A stretch of DNA of 64,000 nt, taken from Escherichia phage HildyBeyeler. The notes beneath the pieces are model-generated. The model did no database searches and was not told the origin of the DNA. It worked only from the letters and a program-made list of their open reading frames with translations. This document shows positions 2,765-22,788 of this stretch, piece by piece (the stretch's first letter is position 1; every line of letters starts with the position of its first letter). A program made the translations under genes and the position numbers. Where the stretch lies: sequence record MZ501074; one strand, 5' to 3'.

Positions 2765-5324
2765 CGAGAATCCTTTTCACGTTATCCAGATCTTTACATA
2801 TAGCAATAAACTTATCGTCCTTGTACTTGCTATGATCTGGATGCTCTTTATCCATTGCAGCTAATTTCTTATACTCGAACTCTGCATCAAGTAATACACC
2901 CTTGACATAGCGAGTATATTCATCATCATCAATACAAGCGATTGATGGGTGCTGTTTCTTCATCTTACCACAAGAATAGTCACGAGAACCTCCAGCTTCA
3001 GAATCTGAATCAATACCAATCGGACAGCCAGGAATACTGATACCACGGTCTTTCTGAATATTACGAATCAGGATTTCATTGTATTGGTCGATTAAGTCTT
3101 CACGAACAATAGCAACTACGGAGTCATGAACCAGCATAACAATCTTCATCTCTTGCTCTAGGCCAAGAGAAATGATCTCATTATCTGCATCTACAGCACC
3201 TAAAAGGAGACTATCAGAAGAAGCAGACTGAATGATTGCGTTAAATCCAGAACGAATTTCTTCCCCCTGAACGCCACGATCTTCAGAATGGATATTATGC
3301 AGACGACGTTTACGACCAAAGTGACTATAGATAAATCCATGATTCTTGATCTGATCGTGGCACTTATCGATCCAACGCTTAAGCTGTGGGAATTGACCAA
3401 AGTAAGTCTCAATGTACTCTTTAGCATCTGCAACAGTACACTCTACAAACGGTTCCCCAGTTTTAGCTGCTTGTTCGAGCAATGCTTCGTTAACAGAATG
3501 TGCTACTTTAGCTGGGCCAGAACCATACAGAATACCAAAGGTGATTGCTTTAGCTGCTTGACGCAGAGCTGGGAATAACTTTTTAACATCACGAGGTTCG
3601 CATTGGAGCTTAAATACCATGTGTGCGATGTTAGAGTGGAAGTCAGGGTATTTATCAGGTTCATTTCTCATGTTGATAAATACTTGTTGCATATTTCTAT
3701 CACCAGATAGAGCAGCAGCATAATAAACTTCCGCAGTTGTTAAGTCCCACGCGATTACACGATACCCAGGAGGAGCTACTACACAACCCTTGATAATAGA
3801 TTCATCACGAGGTAACTGTTGCAGGTTCAGTTTACCAGAAGAACTCAGACGACCAGAAGTGGTCATATGTTCATGGAAACCAGTACGAATGCACCCATCT
3901 GCATCAATACTCAGAAGAATCTTCTCAACATAAGTAGAGATTAGCTTAGTCAGCTTACGAATCTCTAGCAGAGTTTTAGCAATTGGATGCTGCGTAGCCA
4001 GTTCATTCAGAGCTTCTGCATCCGTAGAATCTGCACCAGTATCTGTTAACTTACCAGTTGGAGTCAAACCAACATAATCGAACAGAAGAACACGAAGTTG
4101 TTTAACAGAGTTCGGGTTAAATGCTTCATTCTGATCTTGTTCTAGCTGTTTAACTTCTGGATAAGTGTACAGTTTCTCACGGGCTTTATTCAGGTTATGG
4201 GTTAACTGATACTGAGCTTCTTTCAAACGATCAATAGAGATAGGTACGCCACGATCTTCGACACGTTGTAAGAATACGCAACCAGGCATCAAAACATCGT
4301 AATACAGACTACAAAGTTTTTCATTCTTCTCAATCTTTGGTAAGAAGAAGTTGTGTAAACGTAGGGTAGCATCTGTATCTTTCGCAGCATATGGCCACAT
4401 AATATCAAATGGAATTAAATCATAGGTGAAATCTTCTTTCTTGATTTTATGTGCTTTGCAGTAATCATCTTTGAACTTATCTAGTTCGAAGTCATAGTCA
4501 CCCATATCGGTATACTTCATTGCTAGGGATTTCAAGCCATGAGTACCCCGACGTTCGTCTAGAACATAGTGCTGCAACATGGTATCATGGAGCCTGCGTT
4601 CTTTATGTGCTTTATCAAAAGTAAGCCCCAGATGGTACTTATAAAAGTGCATATCAAACTTTAAGTTGTGAAAAACAATAGTGTGGTTTTCACTATCTAG
4701 AATTTTCTGGAGATAATATACTGCAACCTCTGTGAGACAATCAGAATCGATATATACACCCTGATATTCTTGGTGAGATATAGAAACACCAAGCAGATAA
4801 CCATCTCGACAGTATAGTGCTGAGGTTTCGGAGTCGAATGCGACGGGTCCGATAACCATATTATACACCATCTTGATATATTCTTCCGCCTCGTCAGGGT
4901 CAGTAATAGGACGGTAATCACCAGCTTTTGCAATCTTCTCACGACCATTGATAATATCGTGGATATTCTCTACTGTTGCATCAAAAACTGGTTTCATTTC
5001 AGGCTTAAAGTGTAACTGGGCTGGGCTGATACTCGCAATCCAGTTAGCATATCCATTATATTCTACACGTTTACCAGTATAGTCACCAATGCCTTTCTTA
5101 CCTGCGAAATACAGGAAAGGTTCAGCACCTACTAGTATAACAAAATCATAATCATTCGGATCAAACGGGTTTTCTGGTGTTCCAATAGTAATGTGCTTTT
5201 TAAGCAAACGACCAGATAACTTCTCGTTACACATATGGAATACATCAACTTCCTCGCCGTATAGCTGGAAATGTTTATCGTAACGAGTGTTACTTAGAGC
5301 TTTATCAACTACTGCGATTTTCAA
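2757..5324 (-). CDS. DNA polymerase, family A (855 aa), probable TTG start
   Basis: 3'-5' exonuclease and polymerase motifs (KAITFGILYGSG, LVHDS); 855 aa as in T5 DNA polymerase; GAGGAG RBS. Confidence 0.9.
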   Translation of the reverse strand: MKIAVVDKALSNTRYDKHFQLYGEEVDVFHMCNEKLSGRLLKKHITIGTPENPFDPNDYDFVILVGAEPFLYFAGKKGIGDYTGKRVEYNGYANWIASISPAQLHFKPEMKPVFDATVENIHDIINGREKIAKAGDYRPITDPDEAEEYIKMVYNMVIGPVAFDSETSALYCRDGYLLGVSISHQEYQGVYIDSDCLTEVAVYYLQKILDSENHTIVFHNLKFDMHFYKYHLGLTFDKAHKERRLHDTMLQHYVLDERRGTHGLKSLAMKYTDMGDYDFELDKFKDDYCKAHKIKKEDFTYDLIPFDIMWPYAAKDTDATLRLHNFFLPKIEKNEKLCSLYYDVLMPGCVFLQRVEDRGVPISIDRLKEAQYQLTHNLNKAREKLYTYPEVKQLEQDQNEAFNPNSVKQLRVLLFDYVGLTPTGKLTDTGADSTDAEALNELATQHPIAKTLLEIRKLTKLISTYVEKILLSIDADGCIRTGFHEHMTTSGRLSSSGKLNLQQLPRDESIIKGCVVAPPGYRVIAWDLTTAEVYYAAALSGDRNMQQVFINMRNEPDKYPDFHSNIAHMVFKLQCEPRDVKKLFPALRQAAKAITFGILYGSGPAKVAHSVNEALLEQAAKTGEPFVECTVADAKEYIETYFGQFPQLKRWIDKCHDQIKNHGFIYSHFGRKRRLHNIHSEDRGVQGEEIRSGFNAIIQSASSDSLLLGAVDADNEIISLGLEQEMKIVMLVHDSVVAIVREDLIDQYNEILIRNIQKDRGISIPGCPIGIDSDSEAGGSRDYSCGKMKKQHPSIACIDDDEYTRYVKGVLLDAEFEYKKLAAMDKEHPDHSKYKDDKFIAICKDLDNVKRILGA

Positions 5325-13670: not shown

Positions 13671-13913
13671 TTATGATTCTTTGAGCAAAGAAGAAAGTTC
13701 AGCATATACTTTATCTAACTCAAACCCTATGCGAAGAGATACGTTAGTCCTCCGTTGTTTAAGTAACCACTCGGATATGTTAGGGATGCCAGCTAGTCTA
13801 GCAGGAACCACCCTACATAGCTTCTCCGAAGTATCATAAACAGGGACTTTACGTTCTTTTACTGGAAACTTCCTTGTTTCCCATTTTTTATTCTTCACTG
13901 TCATTTCTAGCAC
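13671..13913 (-). CDS. hypothetical protein (80 aa)
   Basis: ORF track; overlaps the end of the upstream gene. Confidence 0.45.
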   Translation of the reverse strand: MLEMTVKNKKWETRKFPVKERKVPVYDTSEKLCRVVPARLAGIPNISEWLLKQRRTNVSLRIGFELDKVYAELSSLLKES

Positions 13914-16677
13914 CTAGCTCTGACATTGCTTCTTCTGCCATAGCCTTCTCTTCCTCTGTCATGAATTTGAAAGGAATTGGCATACACTCGATTTTACAAT
14001 AGGTTCTGTACCAGTCTACGATATTCTCCGTGTTCATATCTTTACCAATACCCATCATACCAAGATACATTCTAGCATATTTTGGGTTAGCACTCTGGCC
14101 TGTTTTAAGGAAGAAATCCTTTTTCTTACCTTTTAGAGCTTCTATGAATGGTTTAATGGTTACATTTGAACACTTCTTAATGTCTTCCCAGAACATCTCG
14201 TGCATCTTATGAAAGAATGCAGCTCGATCATTTGGTTTATCTTTGATATATTGTTCAACATGCTCAACTGTTACATCTTTAATAGACTCAAGATGATAAT
14301 AGCGAACAATAAGTAGTTTAGCTTCATACGCATCAGCATGACGTGGAGCACAATAATCCGGAGTTGAATGTAGAATAGCTTTGATTCGCTCTTCTGTGTA
14401 CTCTTTACCAGCACCTTCAATAGTTCCCCAGCTTTCACTGAAAATATCAATAGTTGCACCCTGATCAAGCAAGTAATAACGTAAAGTACTAGTATAGTTC
14501 CTAGATTCCAGCTCCCTGCGACGTGCGTATAATTGCTGTGCTAACTCCAGCCAACCCTCATCAATGTTATACTGTTCAGAACCTGCGGAGAATCCACTCG
14601 TAGATTTATCAATAAAATAATAAATGTTCTGAGCGCCACGGTCGCGCCTGATTGCTTGGAAACGCATGTTTGGCGCTTGATTACTGGTTCTAGTAATAAC
14701 AAATACGTTATCAAAATAGTTGAAGTCAACTCCACTCGTTACGGATGGACTACATAATAAGCAATCAATTTGTTGATCAATTAGCTCATTAGTTGTGTAA
14801 TCCAGAATACGTCTAATATCCACATCTGATGTGGAGTTTGAGTGGATTTCCTTAACTAACGCACCAGTATTACGACGTAGTGCCATGCCCTTCTCATTCA
14901 GCTCATCAGGGCCACAATCAGATACTAGAATAGATTTCTCACCCATCTCTAGAGAAGTCTGAAGTGCAACCCAAATACTGGATTCATCGGGGAACTCATA
15001 AGCGTGAGCTTTTGACAGCATTTTACGGTGATGATTATAAAATGCTACTGGTTTATCGAACTCAATCAAAGAACCATATGCTTCAATTGTTTCAGCACTA
15101 ATATCACCATCGGATAGTATAATGATTTTTGCAGTTGCAAGAATATCACGAAGAACCTGAATACACTCGCGACGTTGCTTAACAACTGGGGCGAATAATA
15201 GGTCATTCATTACTGCATCACATTCATCGATAAAGATTGCATCAATTTGACCAATAAAACTCTTAAACTTATGTAAAGAGTGGATAGTTGTGGACATACG
15301 GTCAATAGCACCACGCTTAAAATTAAGCATATCTACAGACTTATCATATTGTCCTGCACTAAATTTCTTGGCATTTGAAGACACCAGTGCCCTAGTATTG
15401 GTAATTGCTAAGAAATTACCTTTAATAACTCCTGAATCTAACCAACGCACAACTGCCGTGGTTTTACCTGTACCTAGACTTGCTTTTACAAAAGTCATAT
15501 AACCTTCTGGTGGTACAGTGTTTAATTTCAAGAAGTTATCAGTTTCTAGAGAATTAGTTTCTAATTTTTTAAGTGGAACACCTTTTAATACTTCTGGGAT
15601 CTCACGCTTAGAGTTATTAACAAAGGCTTTTAATGCCTGTTTTCGACCGTTATTAAAATAATCTTGAATATTACGACTATTATCTTTAGTTGCAATATAC
15701 TCAGATAAAGCTGGGCGGATCTCCTTCTCTAGCCAACCAAAATCTACACCATCCTCTAACGCTCGGTGATATAGCTTTGGAATAATACGTAGATATACAC
15801 CATCCTCAGCCTCTTCTAACTCGCTAATGGTTTCTTCTACTTTATCAGAAGCAATCTTTTTGCCTTTAATTTGATCGAGTAAAGAGTAGAATTCCTCTTT
15901 AAACTCCCCTCTAGTTGTTTCATAGTCAACCAGATTATTAGGTAAATTTACTTTAGAACCCTTAACAAATACCAGACGTGAAGCACCCTCCGCTTTAAAC
16001 GGATCAACTATACCATCAGTAAATAAAGGATCTGCAAAGTAATGGAGCTGTACGGAAGAGTAATAAGCTAAGTCGGCAATATCAAAGCCATACTTTTGTC
16101 TACTACTTTCATTGATAGATGTAAATAAGAACTTGATCTGACCCTGTGTAACTTTAACATTAGATTCTAGTATTAAGTGCATTCGGATACCTGGTTTTAG
16201 TCCAGCCGAAGACGATGCATGAGCAATAAACCCTGCATCAAGAGGAAACATATCCTCACTAATACTATTCAACATTCTAATAATATGACGCGCCATGCCA
16301 ACAAGATCAAACTTGTTACAACCTCCTGTATCTACAATACCATCCACGTCCATTGCAATTATATGACTTGGGTTAGATACATTAAAGTTGTCCTTCTTAC
16401 GCCGCACATTATTTTTAGGTGCAAGACATCGACCTCGTACCGCAACGATATGGGGGTCAGACGTTAAACGTCTCATAAGAGGGAGCATTTCTACTAGGGT
16501 TTGAGGATCAACTTCATCAATTACATCAAACTTGAAGGGCATTGAAGCTGGTTTACCTTCAGGATGCTTTGAGGAAAATCTTTTAGCAAAAAGATAATCT
16601 TCTGCTTTAACTTCTCGCCAATTGCCCGTGGCTAAATCGCGATGAAATCCTGCATGACCTTGTAGGATTGAGAACAC
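13888..16677 (-). CDS. putative replication origin-binding protein / SF2 helicase (~929 aa), GTG start
   Basis: P-loop FVKASLGTGKTTAV and DEAD-like IFIDECDAV; the track ORF extends to 16875, but an AGGAG RBS supports the GTG at 16677. Confidence 0.65.
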   Translation of the reverse strand: MFSILQGHAGFHRDLATGNWREVKAEDYLFAKRFSSKHPEGKPASMPFKFDVIDEVDPQTLVEMLPLMRRLTSDPHIVAVRGRCLAPKNNVRRKKDNFNVSNPSHIIAMDVDGIVDTGGCNKFDLVGMARHIIRMLNSISEDMFPLDAGFIAHASSSAGLKPGIRMHLILESNVKVTQGQIKFLFTSINESSRQKYGFDIADLAYYSSVQLHYFADPLFTDGIVDPFKAEGASRLVFVKGSKVNLPNNLVDYETTRGEFKEEFYSLLDQIKGKKIASDKVEETISELEEAEDGVYLRIIPKLYHRALEDGVDFGWLEKEIRPALSEYIATKDNSRNIQDYFNNGRKQALKAFVNNSKREIPEVLKGVPLKKLETNSLETDNFLKLNTVPPEGYMTFVKASLGTGKTTAVVRWLDSGVIKGNFLAITNTRALVSSNAKKFSAGQYDKSVDMLNFKRGAIDRMSTTIHSLHKFKSFIGQIDAIFIDECDAVMNDLLFAPVVKQRRECIQVLRDILATAKIIILSDGDISAETIEAYGSLIEFDKPVAFYNHHRKMLSKAHAYEFPDESSIWVALQTSLEMGEKSILVSDCGPDELNEKGMALRRNTGALVKEIHSNSTSDVDIRRILDYTTNELIDQQIDCLLCSPSVTSGVDFNYFDNVFVITRTSNQAPNMRFQAIRRDRGAQNIYYFIDKSTSGFSAGSEQYNIDEGWLELAQQLYARRRELESRNYTSTLRYYLLDQGATIDIFSESWGTIEGAGKEYTEERIKAILHSTPDYCAPRHADAYEAKLLIVRYYHLESIKDVTVEHVEQYIKDKPNDRAAFFHKMHEMFWEDIKKCSNVTIKPFIEALKGKKKDFFLKTGQSANPKYARMYLGMMGIGKDMNTENIVDWYRTYCKIECMPIPFKFMTEEEKAMAEEAMSELGARNDSEE

Positions 16678-17273
16678 AACAATACTCCTGTGTTGGAAAT
16701 GAAATAAGTTTTCTTTAGGACTATTCAGAAAGAATAGAACAACTGTTACTGTCAATTTCTCAACAATTAATCGCAAATACTGAAGTGGGGTGGCAACTTC
16801 CACTTTCACGCTGCGCTGCTGCCTCATTATACCGCACAAATCCTTGAGGATGGCCGCTAAGCCGGATTTGCTCACCTAATGCTTCATATACTAGCTCATA
16901 CTAGATGCAATATAACTTACAGAATCACGTCTCGGTAGTTTTTCACTCCTCCCATCTCACTTCACAACCACCTCATACTAGGTTGCTTCGAGGCCTTACC
17001 AGGGTTCCTATGGGACGCAGATCGCTAAGTATTCTATTAACTATTTGTTTAAAAACTAACACGTAACAGTTAAAACAACCCTTAATGGGGCAGCCTAACT
17101 GTTCCGTATCGCGGATTGTAAACAAGAAAAAACTTTTTCGTAAAGCTCTAGCAACGTACCTTATGCAGCTATTTACGGGTCATCGATTCCTCTCGCCGTA
17201 AATCCATTGTCAGCTTCACTAAGAAAAATTAGCAAAATCAATTTTTACTAATGTCTCTCAATTCAATATAAAT

Positions 17274-17302
17274 ATTATAGCAAGATTTTGAGCATCATGC
17301 AA
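17274..17302 (-). promoter_or_regulatory. sigma70 promoter (TTGCAT, 17 bp, TATAAT)
   Basis: Consensus hexamers with the conserved downstream box TTGAATTGAGAGAC. Confidence 0.6.
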
Positions 17303-17378
17303 GTAAATTTTTAAGGAGAATGCTATCAGTGTCTTTGAGCACAGTGAAAACCGAGCCAAAATGACTCGGTTATGTGGA

Positions 17379-17573
17379 TTAGACACTTAAAATACTTCTA
17401 ATCTCTTCTATATACTTATCTACTTTTTTAGCATCTATTTTACTTAGTTTTCCTATATCAAAATCAGGATCAGTCAAATATCTTGCCATAAATTTTACTT
17501 GTTTAGCTGAAAGTTGACCCTTATTCCACTTTTTAATTTTACCATAACATACCCAATATTCTTTATTCATCAT
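17379..17573 (-). CDS. hypothetical protein (64 aa)
   Basis: ORF track. Confidence 0.4.
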   Translation of the reverse strand: MMNKEYWVCYGKIKKWNKGQLSAKQVKFMARYLTDPDFDIGKLSKIDAKKVDKYIEEIRSILSV

Positions 17574-17955
17574 TTAGTCCCGAAACATAAATCCCAACAC
17601 GGTTTAATTGTTCTTTGGCTTCTTTGAGAATATCTGGAGTGTACTCCCAAATATCATCTTCCACCTGTAAAAGATGGGGCGAACAACCGTCATCGGGCAC
17701 ACGACATATGGCCAAACCACGTGGATGGAACAAAGAGAAATTTAGTGCAACAATTAAACCCATAGCAGACAACTCATTCCAATCCAATTCCCATTCCCTA
17801 GCGTAGCCTGATAGGAAAACACCAATACAGGGATCGTCTATTTGCTGCTCCGGAAAAGTAAAGGAGGCTTGTCTTACCCCCAACCAACGTTGTAGCAGCT
17901 TCTCCGCACGCTTCACCAAACTAGGATCAATCTGACGCCAATATACTTGTTCCAT
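17563..17955 (-). CDS. hypothetical protein (130 aa), paralog of 17965-18393
   Basis: Shares CIG...W.EL...MGL..ALN..LF.P with the neighbouring gene. Confidence 0.55.
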   Translation of the reverse strand: MEQVYWRQIDPSLVKRAEKLLQRWLGVRQASFTFPEQQIDDPCIGVFLSGYAREWELDWNELSAMGLIVALNFSLFHPRGLAICRVPDDGCSPHLLQVEDDIWEYTPDILKEAKEQLNRVGIYVSGLNDE

Positions 17956-17964
17956 TGTGCCACC

Positions 17965-18393
17965 TTAGGCAGTTAAACCAGGAATTTGATAACCAAAACG
18001 ACGAAGTTTCTGGATACCATCATTTACTTCTTCCGGTGAGTAAGACCAACCGTAATGTTCATCAACTTGAAAGCCAGGAGATTCACTGGTTTTATAGTTA
18101 ACAACAATACGGTGTTTATTGGGCATAAATAGCTTATAGTTTAATGCAAAAACCAACCCCATTTCATCCAGCTCTTTCCAGCCGACAATCTCTTCCAGAC
18201 CATCCTCTACCTGCACAACTAGACCAATACACGGGGCCTCATCAATATCATCTTTAAAAGCAAAGGAGATTTCATTATTTTCACACCATATTTTCAAGGA
18301 GTTAATAGTCTCATTATACAGGCTAGCTGGGAGAGTACGCCAGAAGTTAACCAAAATTGGATTAGCTTCTTTAGAGAATACATTATTGAACAT
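17965..18393 (-). CDS. hypothetical protein (142 aa), paralog of 17563-17955
   Basis: Shares a conserved central block with the adjacent gene. Confidence 0.55.
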   Translation of the reverse strand: MFNNVFSKEANPILVNFWRTLPASLYNETINSLKIWCENNEISFAFKDDIDEAPCIGLVVQVEDGLEEIVGWKELDEMGLVFALNYKLFMPNKHRIVVNYKTSESPGFQVDEHYGWSYSPEEVNDGIQKLRRFGYQIPGLTA

Positions 18394-18395
18394 AT

Positions 18396-18902
18396 TTACA
18401 CCTTAAGTTGTTGTAGGGCTTTACACATTTCAAGATCTGGACTAAATTCTAGCATATAGCTAACAGCCATTAAATCTTGAAGGTTTATTCCAGTTCTACC
18501 GTTGACTATAACCGTTGGATACTGGTACATCATAGCACCAGCGTCATCCAGCACACACCAATGTTTGAGCTTATGCTTTTCAACGAAGCGAAGAACAGAA
18601 TTACCCCTAGATAGCCCACCACCAGTAAAATCCGTTGTACCAAGAAAACGATCAATAAGATCTAATCTGGTCATAATCTGAACGTTCTCCATCTCATTCC
18701 TGACAGAGAACCATGAAGATACCCCAACAATCATTATTGGAGAAGGACGAATAAAGTCCTGAAAAGCCTTGAGAAGCGGCTTAAAAACCCAGTCACTTCC
18801 AAAGAAAATCTTTTCATCATCAGGTGCATGATGGTGGGAGATGCTCGAATTAAGCACCCCATCGATGTCTAGAAAAATAATTGGAGTATTACTTATTTCC
18901 AT
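18396..18902 (-). CDS. HAD-superfamily phosphatase-like protein (168 aa)
   Basis: N-terminal HAD motif I IIFLDIDGVL and a downstream VLDD motif. Confidence 0.6.
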   Translation of the reverse strand: MEISNTPIIFLDIDGVLNSSISHHHAPDDEKIFFGSDWVFKPLLKAFQDFIRPSPIMIVGVSSWFSVRNEMENVQIMTRLDLIDRFLGTTDFTGGGLSRGNSVLRFVEKHKLKHWCVLDDAGAMMYQYPTVIVNGRTGINLQDLMAVSYMLEFSPDLEMCKALQQLKV

Positions 18903-19071
18903 TTCTGTTCCTTTCTAAGAACGTATCATACTCAACCGTATCAACATATATGACACCATAGTCATCGGATTTATAGTCCATTTCCCATAGCTCACATCGA
19001 TAGCACCAACTACCATCCGCCCATACAAATATATCATCGGGATGTGTATACACAGATTTAACTATGGACAT
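18889..19071 (-). CDS. hypothetical protein (60 aa)
   Basis: ORF track. Confidence 0.35.
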   Translation of the reverse strand: MSIVKSVYTHPDDIFVWADGSWCYRCELWEMDYKSDDYGVIYVDTVEYDTFLERNRNGNK

Positions 19072-19886
19072 ATTTGTTTTCCCGGCATATAAGGTCTACC
19101 CTCTAGATGAGCTTCTACACGAGCAATAAAACCAGGATCACTGAAAGCATCTACTGCACCTTTACTCCAGTAAGGAATACCACGATCTTCCAGTTGGTAC
19201 ATATCACTACGAGTCATACCTTGATAGCCTGGTTTCGACGCTAGGGCACTATCATAGTAGTTAACTACCATAAGTTTCGCAGCAGTCCGATTAAGAACAG
19301 GGAATAGTTCCCAGTAGAAGTTAATTACTTGGTTAGAGCAACCAACTACAACGATCATATCTTGACTGGTAATACCATCAAAAATATTGTACATTTCTGC
19401 GTACGCTGGAGCATGCTCACCAAAAAAGATTACATTAGGTTTAACCCATTTATAATCATCTGGGTCAATAGAGTTATACCCAACATCAATAACCCGTTTA
19501 TTACTACTATTGTAGCTATCAGCTACAACAACCTCTTTTAAATATCCGTGAATGTGCAGAATATCACTATGTGGAACGCCAGCACGCTCAATAAGGTCAT
19601 CAACGTTGGTAGTCAAGTTTACTACTTGACCCGGATATTTCTTATACCATTCACCAATACGCAAGTGTGCAAGATTAGGTTCAACAGTTTCTAACTCTTC
19701 ACGCCGCTTGTTGTAAAACATATGGGTTTTATGATAAAAGTTACCACGAAAGGCGTGAATATTACATACTTCTTCTAGATCATAATCATCCCACAGTGCT
19801 TTACCACTAGCAGTATCGGTACGAAAAGCTCGTACACCACTTTCAACGCTCAAACCTGCACCGCTAATAATAATTAATCTACGCAC
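19062..19886 (-). CDS. Sir2-family (sirtuin-like) NAD-binding protein (274 aa)
   Basis: GAGLSVESGVRAFR (compare Sir2 GAGIS..SGIP.FR), NVDDLIERAG and catalytic-His context ILHIHGY. Confidence 0.65.
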   Translation of the reverse strand: MRRLIIISGAGLSVESGVRAFRTDTASGKALWDDYDLEEVCNIHAFRGNFYHKTHMFYNKRREELETVEPNLAHLRIGEWYKKYPGQVVNLTTNVDDLIERAGVPHSDILHIHGYLKEVVVADSYNSSNKRVIDVGYNSIDPDDYKWVKPNVIFFGEHAPAYAEMYNIFDGITSQDMIVVVGCSNQVINFYWELFPVLNRTAAKLMVVNYYDSALASKPGYQGMTRSDMYQLEDRGIPYWSKGAVDAFSDPGFIARVEAHLEGRPYMPGKQICP

Positions 19887-20685: not shown

Positions 20686-20727
20686 ATAAAATAAAAGCCA
20701 GGTCGACTAGCAACCCGGCTGATTAGC

Positions 20728-22759: not shown

Positions 22760-22788
22760 ATTATACTAAACATTATCCACTATGTCAA
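22760..22788 (-). promoter_or_regulatory. sigma70 promoter (TTGACA, 17 bp, TATAAT), divergent from the phoH promoter
   Basis: Consensus hexamers on the minus strand upstream of 22541-22744 and nrdD. Confidence 0.6.

What the first reader, a model, noticed from the sequence alone, without database searches (positions are those of the whole stretch)
17563..18393. Tandem paralogous genes
The 130-aa and 142-aa products share a conserved core (CIG..., W.EL...MGL..ALN..LF.P), which indicates a tandem duplication and divergence.
Basis: seen in the sequence. Interest (0 to 1): 0.35.

Follow-up and report, generated by a model that had tools for sequence, protein, structure and literature searches.

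The report
Tandem DUF7415 paralogs in T5-like phage

Summary
Confirmed. The minus-strand genes at 17563-17955 (130 aa, A) and 17965-18393 (142 aa, B) are full-length paralogs: BLASTP E=5e-18, 31% identity, shuffle z=26. The window is a Tequintavirus. A and B are the orthologs of T5.107 and T5.106, and the pair recurs in more than 400 T5-like genomes. Both are Pfam DUF7415 / phrog_2502, with no function known and no literature found.

The duplication is old. Both copies also stand in Klebsiella Sugarlandvirus, whereas Serratia phage Slocum has one copy. Both are under purifying selection (dN/dS 0.06-0.22).

Divergence is complementary. A keeps the canonical DUF7415 core motif. B has lost it but keeps the ancestral N-lobe and C-terminal tail.

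Each protein has two lobes. The C-lobe is the widespread about 50-aa DUF7415 unit. The N-lobe is probably a much older, faded copy (weak evidence).

Both proteins are acidic (pI 4.6), so the "exonuclease" and "tail tube" labels in GenBank are unsupported.

Domain fusions (MazG-like, PF04447, dTMP kinase, ASCH, Lar) and NrdD/NrdG neighbourhoods suggest a binding module of the early nucleotide-metabolism or counter-defence programme. That part is inference.

The parts
17965..18393 (-). Gene B, 142 aa. Ortholog of T5.106. Two-lobed DUF7415 protein whose core motif has degenerated.
   Evidence: ORF. Pfam DUF7415 116.3 bits. phrog_2502. 93-94% identical to proteins of T5-like phages. T5.106 position. 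dN/dS 0.06-0.16.
17563..17955 (-). Gene A, 130 aa. Ortholog of T5.107. Two-lobed DUF7415 protein with the canonical core motif.
   Evidence: ORF. Pfam DUF7415 109.1 bits. phrog_2502. 92-96% identical to proteins of T5-like phages. T5.107 position. dN/dS 0.12-0.22. AlphaFold model pLDDT 91.7.
17641..17787 (-). A core (aa 57-105): the canonical DUF7415 unit, LDWNELSAMGLIVALNFSLFHPRGLAICRVPDDGCSPHLLQVEDDIWEY.
   Evidence: 68-70 bits against an HMM built only from 116 distant single-domain homologs. hhalign probability 99.9%.
17797..17955 (-). A N-lobe (aa 1-53): strand-helix-strand-strand, probably a strongly diverged DUF7415 copy.
   Evidence: On its own it scores 59 bits against Pfam DUF7415. 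The single-domain HMM does not detect it. With a diverse profile, hhalign gives an in-register 52-column alignment, P=2.3e-4, probability 44%. It has the same order of secondary-structure elements as the C-lobe.
17566..17640 (-). A C-terminal tail (aa 106-130): a helix followed by the ...GIYVSGLNDE end.
   Evidence: Helix at 107-120 in the model. The tail diverged from the single-copy type (26% identity, against 43% for B).
18043..18189 (-). B core (aa 69-117): degenerate DUF7415 unit. His-Pro became Met-Pro, G-L-A became K-H-R, and R-D-P-x-T-G was lost.
   Evidence: Only 31-32 bits against the single-domain HMM, compared with 68-70 for A. Alignments.
18199..18393 (-). B N-lobe (aa 1-65).
   Evidence: 67 bits against Pfam DUF7415 on its own. 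Closer than A to the single-copy type (29% against 20%).
17968..18042 (-). B C-terminal tail (aa 118-142), ...LRRFGYQIPGLTA.
   Evidence: Conserved from Sugarlandvirus B (RRFGFQVEGLT) to the single-copy Slocum type (FGFQIPEL).
17960..17966 (-). Shine-Dalgarno AAGGTGG for gene A. It overlaps the stop codon of gene B, and the intergenic gap is 9 nt.
   Evidence: Read directly from the sequence.
18399..18404 (-). Shine-Dalgarno AAGGTG for gene B, inside the end of the upstream HAD_SAK_2 gene. Two nt separate that gene's stop from the ATG of B.
   Evidence: Read directly from the sequence. The upstream gene is Pfam HAD_SAK_2.

Best explanation
SHOWN.
- The two genes are ancient tandem paralogs, the T5.106 and T5.107 orthologs of a Tequintavirus.
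- They lie at the end of an early operon: nrdD, terminator/promoter, small ORFs, Sir2-like, HAD_SAK_2, B, A. Their ribosome-binding sites are tightly coupled to the preceding genes.
- Each encodes an acidic (pI 4.6), compact, two-lobed alpha/beta protein.
- The C-lobe is the about 50-residue DUF7415 unit. This unit also occurs as a stand-alone or fused domain in T4-like, P2-like, lambdoid-type and marine phages.
- The duplication predates the split between Markadamsvirinae and Sugarlandvirus. A single-copy form survives in Serratia phage Slocum.
- Both copies are under purifying selection.
- They diverged in a complementary way. A kept the canonical polar core motif (W-N-E-x-S...N...H-P-x-G-L-A...R-x-P...G-x-S-P...W-E-Y) but changed its N-lobe and tail. 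B kept the ancestral N-lobe and tail but lost the core motif.

INFERRED.
- The ancestral protein had two interaction surfaces that are now split between A and B (subfunctionalisation). A and B are made together and possibly act as a heteromer.
- They are non-enzymatic binding modules, not nucleases.
- My first choice (about 0.3) is that the DUF7415 core binds a nucleotide-type ligand or a nucleotide-pool enzyme. This rests on its repeated fusion to NTP pyrophosphohydrolases and dTMP kinase, and on its position next to NrdD/NrdG.
- A close second (about 0.25) is binding and inhibition of a host defence protein.
For: Paralogy.

Identity of the phage and the genes.

Operon and coupling.

Age of the duplication:
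- Both copies are in IME260. The B copy is annotated too short there.
- Slocum has a single copy.
- The tree shows A and B clades.

Constraint: dN/dS.

Complementary divergence:
- Single-copy type against A and B, in percent identity: N-lobe 20 and 29, core 55 and 34, tail 26 and 43.
- Core HMM scores: A 68, Slocum 65, IME260-A 51, B 31, IME260-B 12 bits.

Fold:
- Models with pLDDT 91.7 and 88.7.
- Only family members in BFVD.

Acidity.

Fusions and contexts:
- PF04447 and thymidylate kinase.
- DUF3850/ASCH, Cox, DUF551.
- MazG-like N-terminal domains in about 14 IMG/VR loci.
- Lar_restr_allev.
- Position between NrdD and NrdG in Klebsiella T4-like phages.
- Position after gene A in P2-like phages, with Dam-like and Dcm neighbours.
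Against: - No experiment, no characterised homolog and no literature were found, so the mechanism is inference only.
- Fusion partners are heterogeneous. This may only reflect that small genes at the end of early operons fuse with whatever lies next to them.
- Slocum and Sugarlandvirus keep the genes without HAD, and Slocum also lacks nrdD nearby. No single neighbour other than Sir2 is therefore constant within the family.
- If each two-lobed protein is already an internal pseudo-dimer, A and B may act separately.
- The single-copy status of the three metagenomic 'S-type' proteins was not checked. It was checked only for Slocum.
Confidence: 0.6

Rival explanations
1. Counter-defence proteins. 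A and B are acidic early proteins that bind and inhibit a host immunity protein, such as a restriction enzyme or another nucleic-acid-binding or nucleotide-binding effector, in the manner of small acidic anti-restriction or anti-CRISPR proteins.
For: - pI 4.6 and net charge -9; the family median pI is 4.6-4.9.
- Early-operon position.
- DUF7415 is fused to the Lar restriction-alleviation zinc ribbon (P0104 has the opposite domain order).
- In P2-like prophages it sits next to orphan Dam-like and Dcm methyltransferases, at the accessory-gene hot spot after gene A where P2 carries tin/old.
- It is scattered across unrelated phage families.
Against: - Lar fusions are few: 3 of 63 loci.
- NTP pyrophosphohydrolase fusions are more frequent.
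- No PADLOC or defence-related sequence match was found.
- dN/dS of 0.06-0.2 shows no sign of arms-race diversification.
Confidence: 0.25
2. Exonucleases, as annotated in several GenBank records ('exonuclease', 'Phage exonuclease (ACLAME 70)').
For: Only the database labels themselves.
Against: - No nuclease family matched in Pfam, NCBIfam or PHROGs.
- No PDB sequence match and no fold match.
- The proteins are strongly acidic.
- B has lost most of the conserved polar residues of the family, yet it is the more constrained copy.
Confidence: 0.03
3. Not an in-situ duplication. The second copy was acquired from another phage by recombination next to a resident homolog, so the two are xenologs rather than tandem duplicates.
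For: - Phage genomes are mosaic.
- 31% identity means that any DNA trace of a duplication is gone.
- DUF7415 genes circulate in many phage groups.
Against: - Both copies share the same two-lobe-plus-tail architecture, which is specific to T5-like phages. Other phage groups carry single-lobe forms.
- Order and adjacency are constant over three genera.
- The single-copy Slocum form combines features of A and B, as expected for an ancestor.
Confidence: 0.1
4. The similarity is due to chance or to composition, and the ORFs are not related.
For: None.
Against: E=5e-18, z=26, the same Pfam and PHROG family, and a full-length alignment.
Confidence: 0.01

Closest known systems
T5.106 (YP_006934) and T5.107 (YP_006935) of Escherichia phage T5, and their orthologs in Markadamsvirinae
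   Same: Direct orthologs: 92-96% protein identity, and the same order, spacing and operon.
   Different: Nothing material. Downstream, the window has a 64-aa ORF where T5 is annotated with a terminator.
Pfam DUF7415 (PF24187) single-domain phage proteins of 70-110 aa, found in T4-like Klebsiella, Cronobacter and Aeromonas phages, in marine prophages and in metagenomes
   Same: The C-lobe of A aligns with them over about 55 residues and shares the motif IDWNELSxxGLIxRINxEILHPLGLAxxRDPxTGxSPGxLVxxDGxWEY. They have the same acidic character.
   Different: They have one lobe, whereas the T5-like proteins have an extra N-lobe and a specific C-terminal tail. B has lost the motif.
Orf91-position proteins of P2-like phages (DUF3850/ASCH + DUF7415, e.g. 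Yersinia phage vB_YpM_50 gp02)
   Same: They carry the same DUF7415 core, lie at the end of the early replication operon, and are cited in the T5 record as similar to T5.106.
   Different: They are fused to an ASCH-like domain and have a single DUF7415 lobe. P2 Orf91 itself lacks the DUF7415 part.
MazG-like or PF04447 NTP pyrophosphohydrolase + DUF7415 fusion proteins of enterobacterial prophages
   Same: A C-terminal DUF7415 core with the same motif.
   Different: They contain an enzymatic domain. A and B have none.

Membership tests
Pfam DUF7415 (PF24187) | Whole-protein score above the gathering cut-off of 27 bits. | tested here: met
   A scores 109.1 bits and B 116.3 bits, with two stretches each. 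Each half scored alone gives 53-67 bits.
Pfam DUF7415 (PF24187) | Conserved core motif of the family (W-N-E-x-S, G-L, I-N, H-P-x-G-L-A, G-x-S, W-x-Y), judged against homologs that were not used to find A and B. | tested here: met
   Met for A: 68-70 bits against an HMM of 116 single-domain proteins. Only partly met for B: 31-32 bits, with the His, the G-L-A and the R-D-P lost.
PHROG phrog_2502 | Full-length match to the profile. | tested here: met
   E=6.8e-61 and 2.5e-61, covering 4-134 and 2-134 of 134 profile positions.
Internal tandem repeat of DUF7415 within each protein | The N-lobe is homologous to the C-lobe. | tested here: inconclusive
   For: the Pfam model matches both halves; both lobes have the strand-helix-strand-strand order; hhalign of a diverse N-lobe profile against the single-domain profile is in register, P=2.3e-4, probability 44%. 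Against: the single-domain HMM gives about 0 bits on N-lobes, and a narrow profile-profile test failed.
Exonuclease (GenBank/RAST label 'Phage exonuclease ACLAME 70') | A recognisable nuclease domain or fold. | tested here: not met
Exonuclease (GenBank/RAST label) | Nuclease activity. | not testable with these tools
   Requires biochemistry.
Lar restriction-alleviation family (PF14354) | A Cys4 zinc ribbon with a C-terminal W-N-x-R. | tested here: not met
   Absent from A and B. Present only as a fusion partner of DUF7415 in some P2-like prophages.
Tail tube protein (label on Escherichia phage JLBYU43 and Salmonella phage STG2 orthologs) | Tail-tube fold or family match, and a position in the structural module. 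| tested here: not met
   No such match. The gene lies in the early replication and nucleotide region.

The most novel reading that the evidence does not exclude
DUF7415 is a new small alpha/beta fold that binds a nucleotide or nucleotide-derived signal, or a nucleotide-pool or defence enzyme. Phages attach it to NTP pyrophosphohydrolases, dTMP kinase, ASCH and Lar domains. In T5-like phages it has become a subfunctionalised A/B pair acting with the neighbouring phage Sir2-like protein. That would be a previously unrecognised class of phage sponge, adaptor or inhibitor.
Probability: 0.2. Interest if true: 0.6.

Novelty: already known. Interest (0 to 1): 0.27.

Why it matters
The pair itself is ordinary. 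It consists of conserved hypothetical early genes already present in hundreds of T5-like genomes and already grouped in one Pfam and one PHROG family.

Its modest value has three parts.
- It corrects misleading database labels: exonuclease, tail tube, a mis-called start in IME260, and the neighbouring HAD gene labelled Sir2.
- It is a clean small example of duplication followed by complementary degeneration in a phage.
- It points to DUF7415 as a widespread, structurally unmatched, experimentally untouched phage domain whose fusion partners make it an inexpensive target for functional work.

Tried and rejected
- Sequence search of the PDB with two profiles found nothing.
- Foldseek against BFVD returned only family members. 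The afdb50 library was unavailable.
- PADLOC and NCBIfam gave nothing.
- Literature searches for DUF7415, T5.106/T5.107, the protein accessions, orf91, and T5 with Sir2 returned nothing relevant.
- A first regex attempt to extract domains failed.
- hhalign of the N-half against the C-half of the narrow T5-like alignment gave an out-of-register, non-significant match. Pairwise self-alignment of the halves gave z of 0.4-2.2. The internal repeat therefore rests only on Pfam and on the broader profile comparison.
- A third database search, run for informative source names, returned only 'hypothetical' or 'DUF7415' labels.
- Gene-neighbourhood look-ups in metagenomes mostly showed arrays of unannotated small ORFs.
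- I considered that the single-copy Slocum gene is a B gene whose core was converted from an A-type sequence. I rejected this as less parsimonious than retention of the ancestral state, because the same canonical core is found across the whole single-domain family.

Full report
**1. What is there**

On the minus strand the window carries two ORFs: 17965..18393 (142 aa, here B) and 17563..17955 (130 aa, here A). They are separated by 9 nt. An AAGGTGG Shine-Dalgarno sequence for A overlaps the stop codon of B. An AAGGTG sequence for B lies inside the end of the upstream gene, whose stop is 2 nt from the ATG of B.

**2. Is the similarity real?**

Yes.
- BLASTP aligns 124 residues with one gap: 31% identity, E=5e-18.
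- The Smith-Waterman score is 148, against 27.6 +/- 4.6 for 2000 shuffles, z=26.
- Both proteins match Pfam DUF7415, at 109 and 116 bits against a cut-off of 27.
- Both match phrog_2502 at E about 1e-61.
- A six-frame HMM scan finds no third copy in the window.

**3. Where the window comes from**

The region is 92-98% identical to T5-like phages of Escherichia and Salmonella. There are 443 records with a match, mostly Tequintavirus.

In phage T5 the genes are T5.106 (B) and T5.107 (A), both annotated as hypothetical proteins. They are the last genes of an early transcription unit: promoter, T5.100, T5.101, T5.102 (Sir2-like), T5.103, T5.104, T5.105, T5.106, T5.107, terminator. This unit lies between nrdD and the replication-origin-binding/primase gene T5.108.

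In the window the same neighbours are present. Sir2 is at 19062..19886 and a HAD_SAK_2 phosphatase-family gene at 18396..18902.

Some GenBank records call A and B 'exonuclease'. This derives from the RAST label 'Phage exonuclease (ACLAME 70)'. One ortholog is called 'tail tube protein'.

**4. Age of the duplication**

The B-then-A pair is present in three genera:
- Tequintavirus;
- Epseptimavirus;
- Klebsiella Sugarlandvirus IME260, where the B gene is a 133-aa ORF annotated too short at 95 aa.

A neighbour-joining tree of two-lobed homologs separates an A clade and a B clade. The Sugarlandvirus copies fall one in each clade.

Serratia phage Slocum belongs to the same family, Demerecviridae. 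It has one copy only, directly after Sir2 and before the terminator and the primase gene.

The duplication therefore predates the split between Markadamsvirinae and Sugarlandvirus.

**5. Both copies are functional**

Nei-Gojobori dN/dS among Markadamsvirinae is 0.12-0.22 for A and 0.06-0.16 for B, with dS up to more than 1.

**6. Complementary divergence**

I compared the single-copy type (Slocum plus three metagenomic relatives) with A and B region by region.

| Region | Identity to A | Identity to B |
|---|---|---|
| N-lobe | 20% | 29% |
| Core | 55% | 34% |
| C-terminal tail | 26% | 43% |

Scores against an HMM built only from 116 distant single-domain homologs tell the same story: A 68 bits, Slocum 65, IME260-A 51, B 31, IME260-B 12.

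So A kept the canonical core and changed its N-lobe and tail. B kept the N-lobe and tail and lost the core motif: His-Pro became Met-Pro, G-L-A became K-H-R, and R-D-P-x-T-G is gone. This is the pattern expected from duplication, degeneration and complementation.

Only Slocum was verified to be single-copy.

**7. Architecture and fold**

AlphaFold2 on a 16-sequence alignment gives a confident model of A, with pLDDT 91.7 and pTM 0.85. The order of elements is strand, helix, strand, strand; then strand, helix, strand, strand; then a C-terminal helix.

The C-lobe is the unit shared with distant homologs.

The N-lobe has mixed evidence:
- On its own it scores 59-67 bits on Pfam DUF7415.
- The independent single-domain HMM gives about 0 bits.
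- A narrow profile-profile test failed.
- A broader N-lobe profile (32 sequences) aligns in register with the single-domain profile over 52 columns, P=2.3e-4, probability 44%.

I regard an older internal duplication as probable but not established. If it is real, the locus is a nested duplication with four DUF7415-type units.

**8. The wider family**

An exhaustive profile search of 1.84 billion representative proteins finds only 158 hits. Most are short proteins carrying a single copy of the core, with the consensus IDWNELSelGLIeRINrEILHPLGLAiaRDPeTGtSpGaLVadDGkWEY.

In annotated phages the domain occurs in these places:
- in T5-like phages;
- in many Klebsiella, Cronobacter, Citrobacter and Aeromonas T4-like phages, in one large group exactly between nrdD and nrdG;
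- in P2-like phages, directly after replication gene A and fused to DUF3850/ASCH. P2 Orf91 itself lacks the DUF7415 part.

Fusion partners seen here:
- PF04447 dATP/dGTP pyrophosphohydrolase and thymidylate kinase;
- DUF3850/ASCH, Cox and DUF551;
- a MazG-like N-terminal domain in about 14 of 63 IMG/VR loci (the MazG assignment rests on the EEVGE-type motif, read by eye);
- Lar_restr_allev, at 28.8 bits against a cut-off of 28.6.

In P2-like prophages the neighbours are gpA, a Dam-like methyltransferase (weak match) and a Dcm methyltransferase.

No source gives any member a functional name, and no paper mentions the family.

**9. How it probably works**

The following facts are shown:
- early, co-transcribed, translationally coupled expression;
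- small, acidic proteins (pI 4.6, net charge -9; the whole family has a median pI of 4.6-4.9);
- a dense set of conserved polar and aromatic residues in a 50-residue unit;
- no enzyme signature.

From these I infer non-catalytic binding modules.

The most frequent associations are with enzymes acting on (d)NTP pools: MazG-like, PF04447, dTMP kinase, NrdD/NrdG, and a Nudix gene nearby. My first choice, at about 0.3, is therefore that the core binds a nucleotide-type ligand or docks onto such enzymes.

A close second, at about 0.25, is inhibition of a host defence protein. It is supported by the acidity, the Lar fusions, the orphan-methyltransferase neighbourhoods and the accessory-gene position in P2-like phages.

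After duplication A would retain the core-mediated interaction and B the interaction mediated by the N-lobe and tail. Whether they form a heteromer is untested.

The exonuclease label is very unlikely to be correct.

**10. Verdict**

The feature is already catalogued as the T5.106/T5.107 orthologs, DUF7415 and phrog_2502, and it is ordinary for a phage genome. What remains unknown, and mildly interesting, is the function of DUF7415.

Noticed in passing
window 17379..17573 (-): A 64-aa ORF overlaps the end of gene A by 11 nt and matches phrog_29527 at E=2e-40. It is annotated in ESCO40 but not in T5 or IrisVonRoten. In T5 this position is annotated as a rho-independent terminator. No terminator-like site was found here by the scan.
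   Followed up: partly
window 18396..18902 (-): This 168-aa gene is Pfam HAD_SAK_2, the HAD phosphatase domain of 'Swiss Army Knife' RNA-repair proteins (E=1e-20). Its T5 ortholog T5.105 and phrog_18062 are labelled 'Sir2 (NAD-dependent deacetylase)', which looks like a propagated mis-annotation. The gene is absent from Sugarlandvirus IME260 and Serratia phage Slocum.
   Followed up: partly
window 16876..17378, and 13888..16875 (-): About 0.5 kb without a convincing ORF lies between the end of the operon and the primase/origin-binding gene. T5 annotates a terminator and a promoter here. The 995-aa ORF from GTG listed by the ORF tool is probably over-extended at its 5' end, because T5.108 and its IME260 ortholog are 929 aa.
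   Followed up: no
window 22760..22788 (-), and 20696..20720 (-): A perfect sigma-70 consensus promoter (TTGACA-17-TATAAT) lies upstream of what should be nrdD. A strong terminator-like hairpin (10-bp stem, T-run) lies just upstream of the 132-aa T5.100 homolog. Together they match the T5 layout of nrdD, terminator, then the start of the operon.
   Followed up: no
L003 (Klebsiella phage IME260) 3588..3989: The B-type paralog is a 133-aa ORF, but the RefSeq CDS (gp118) starts at 3702 and covers only 95 aa. This made a tblastn search report a single copy in Sugarlandvirus.
   Followed up: yes
L011 (phage P2) 3317..3646, compared with L006 (Yersinia phage vB_YpM_50) 2240..2695: P2 Orf91 has the DUF3850/ASCH domain, but its C-terminal part is unrelated to the DUF7415 domain found in other P2-like phages. 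The break lies next to the tin/old accessory genes, which suggests that their insertion truncated the fusion protein.
   Followed up: partly
window 18889..19071 (-): A 60-aa ORF (MSIVKSVYTHPDDIFVWADGSWCYRCEL...; phrog_5116) lies between Sir2 and HAD. It is also conserved in Sugarlandvirus IME260 (L003 3410..3601). Its function is unknown.
   Followed up: no
one search hits P0054, P0074, P0121, P0123, P0163 and others (718-4520 aa, 4-13 stretches): Very long repeat proteins match only profile positions of about 98-130, the tail helix. These are almost certainly spurious repeat or low-complexity matches. One of them (P0191) carries Calx-beta domains.
   Followed up: no
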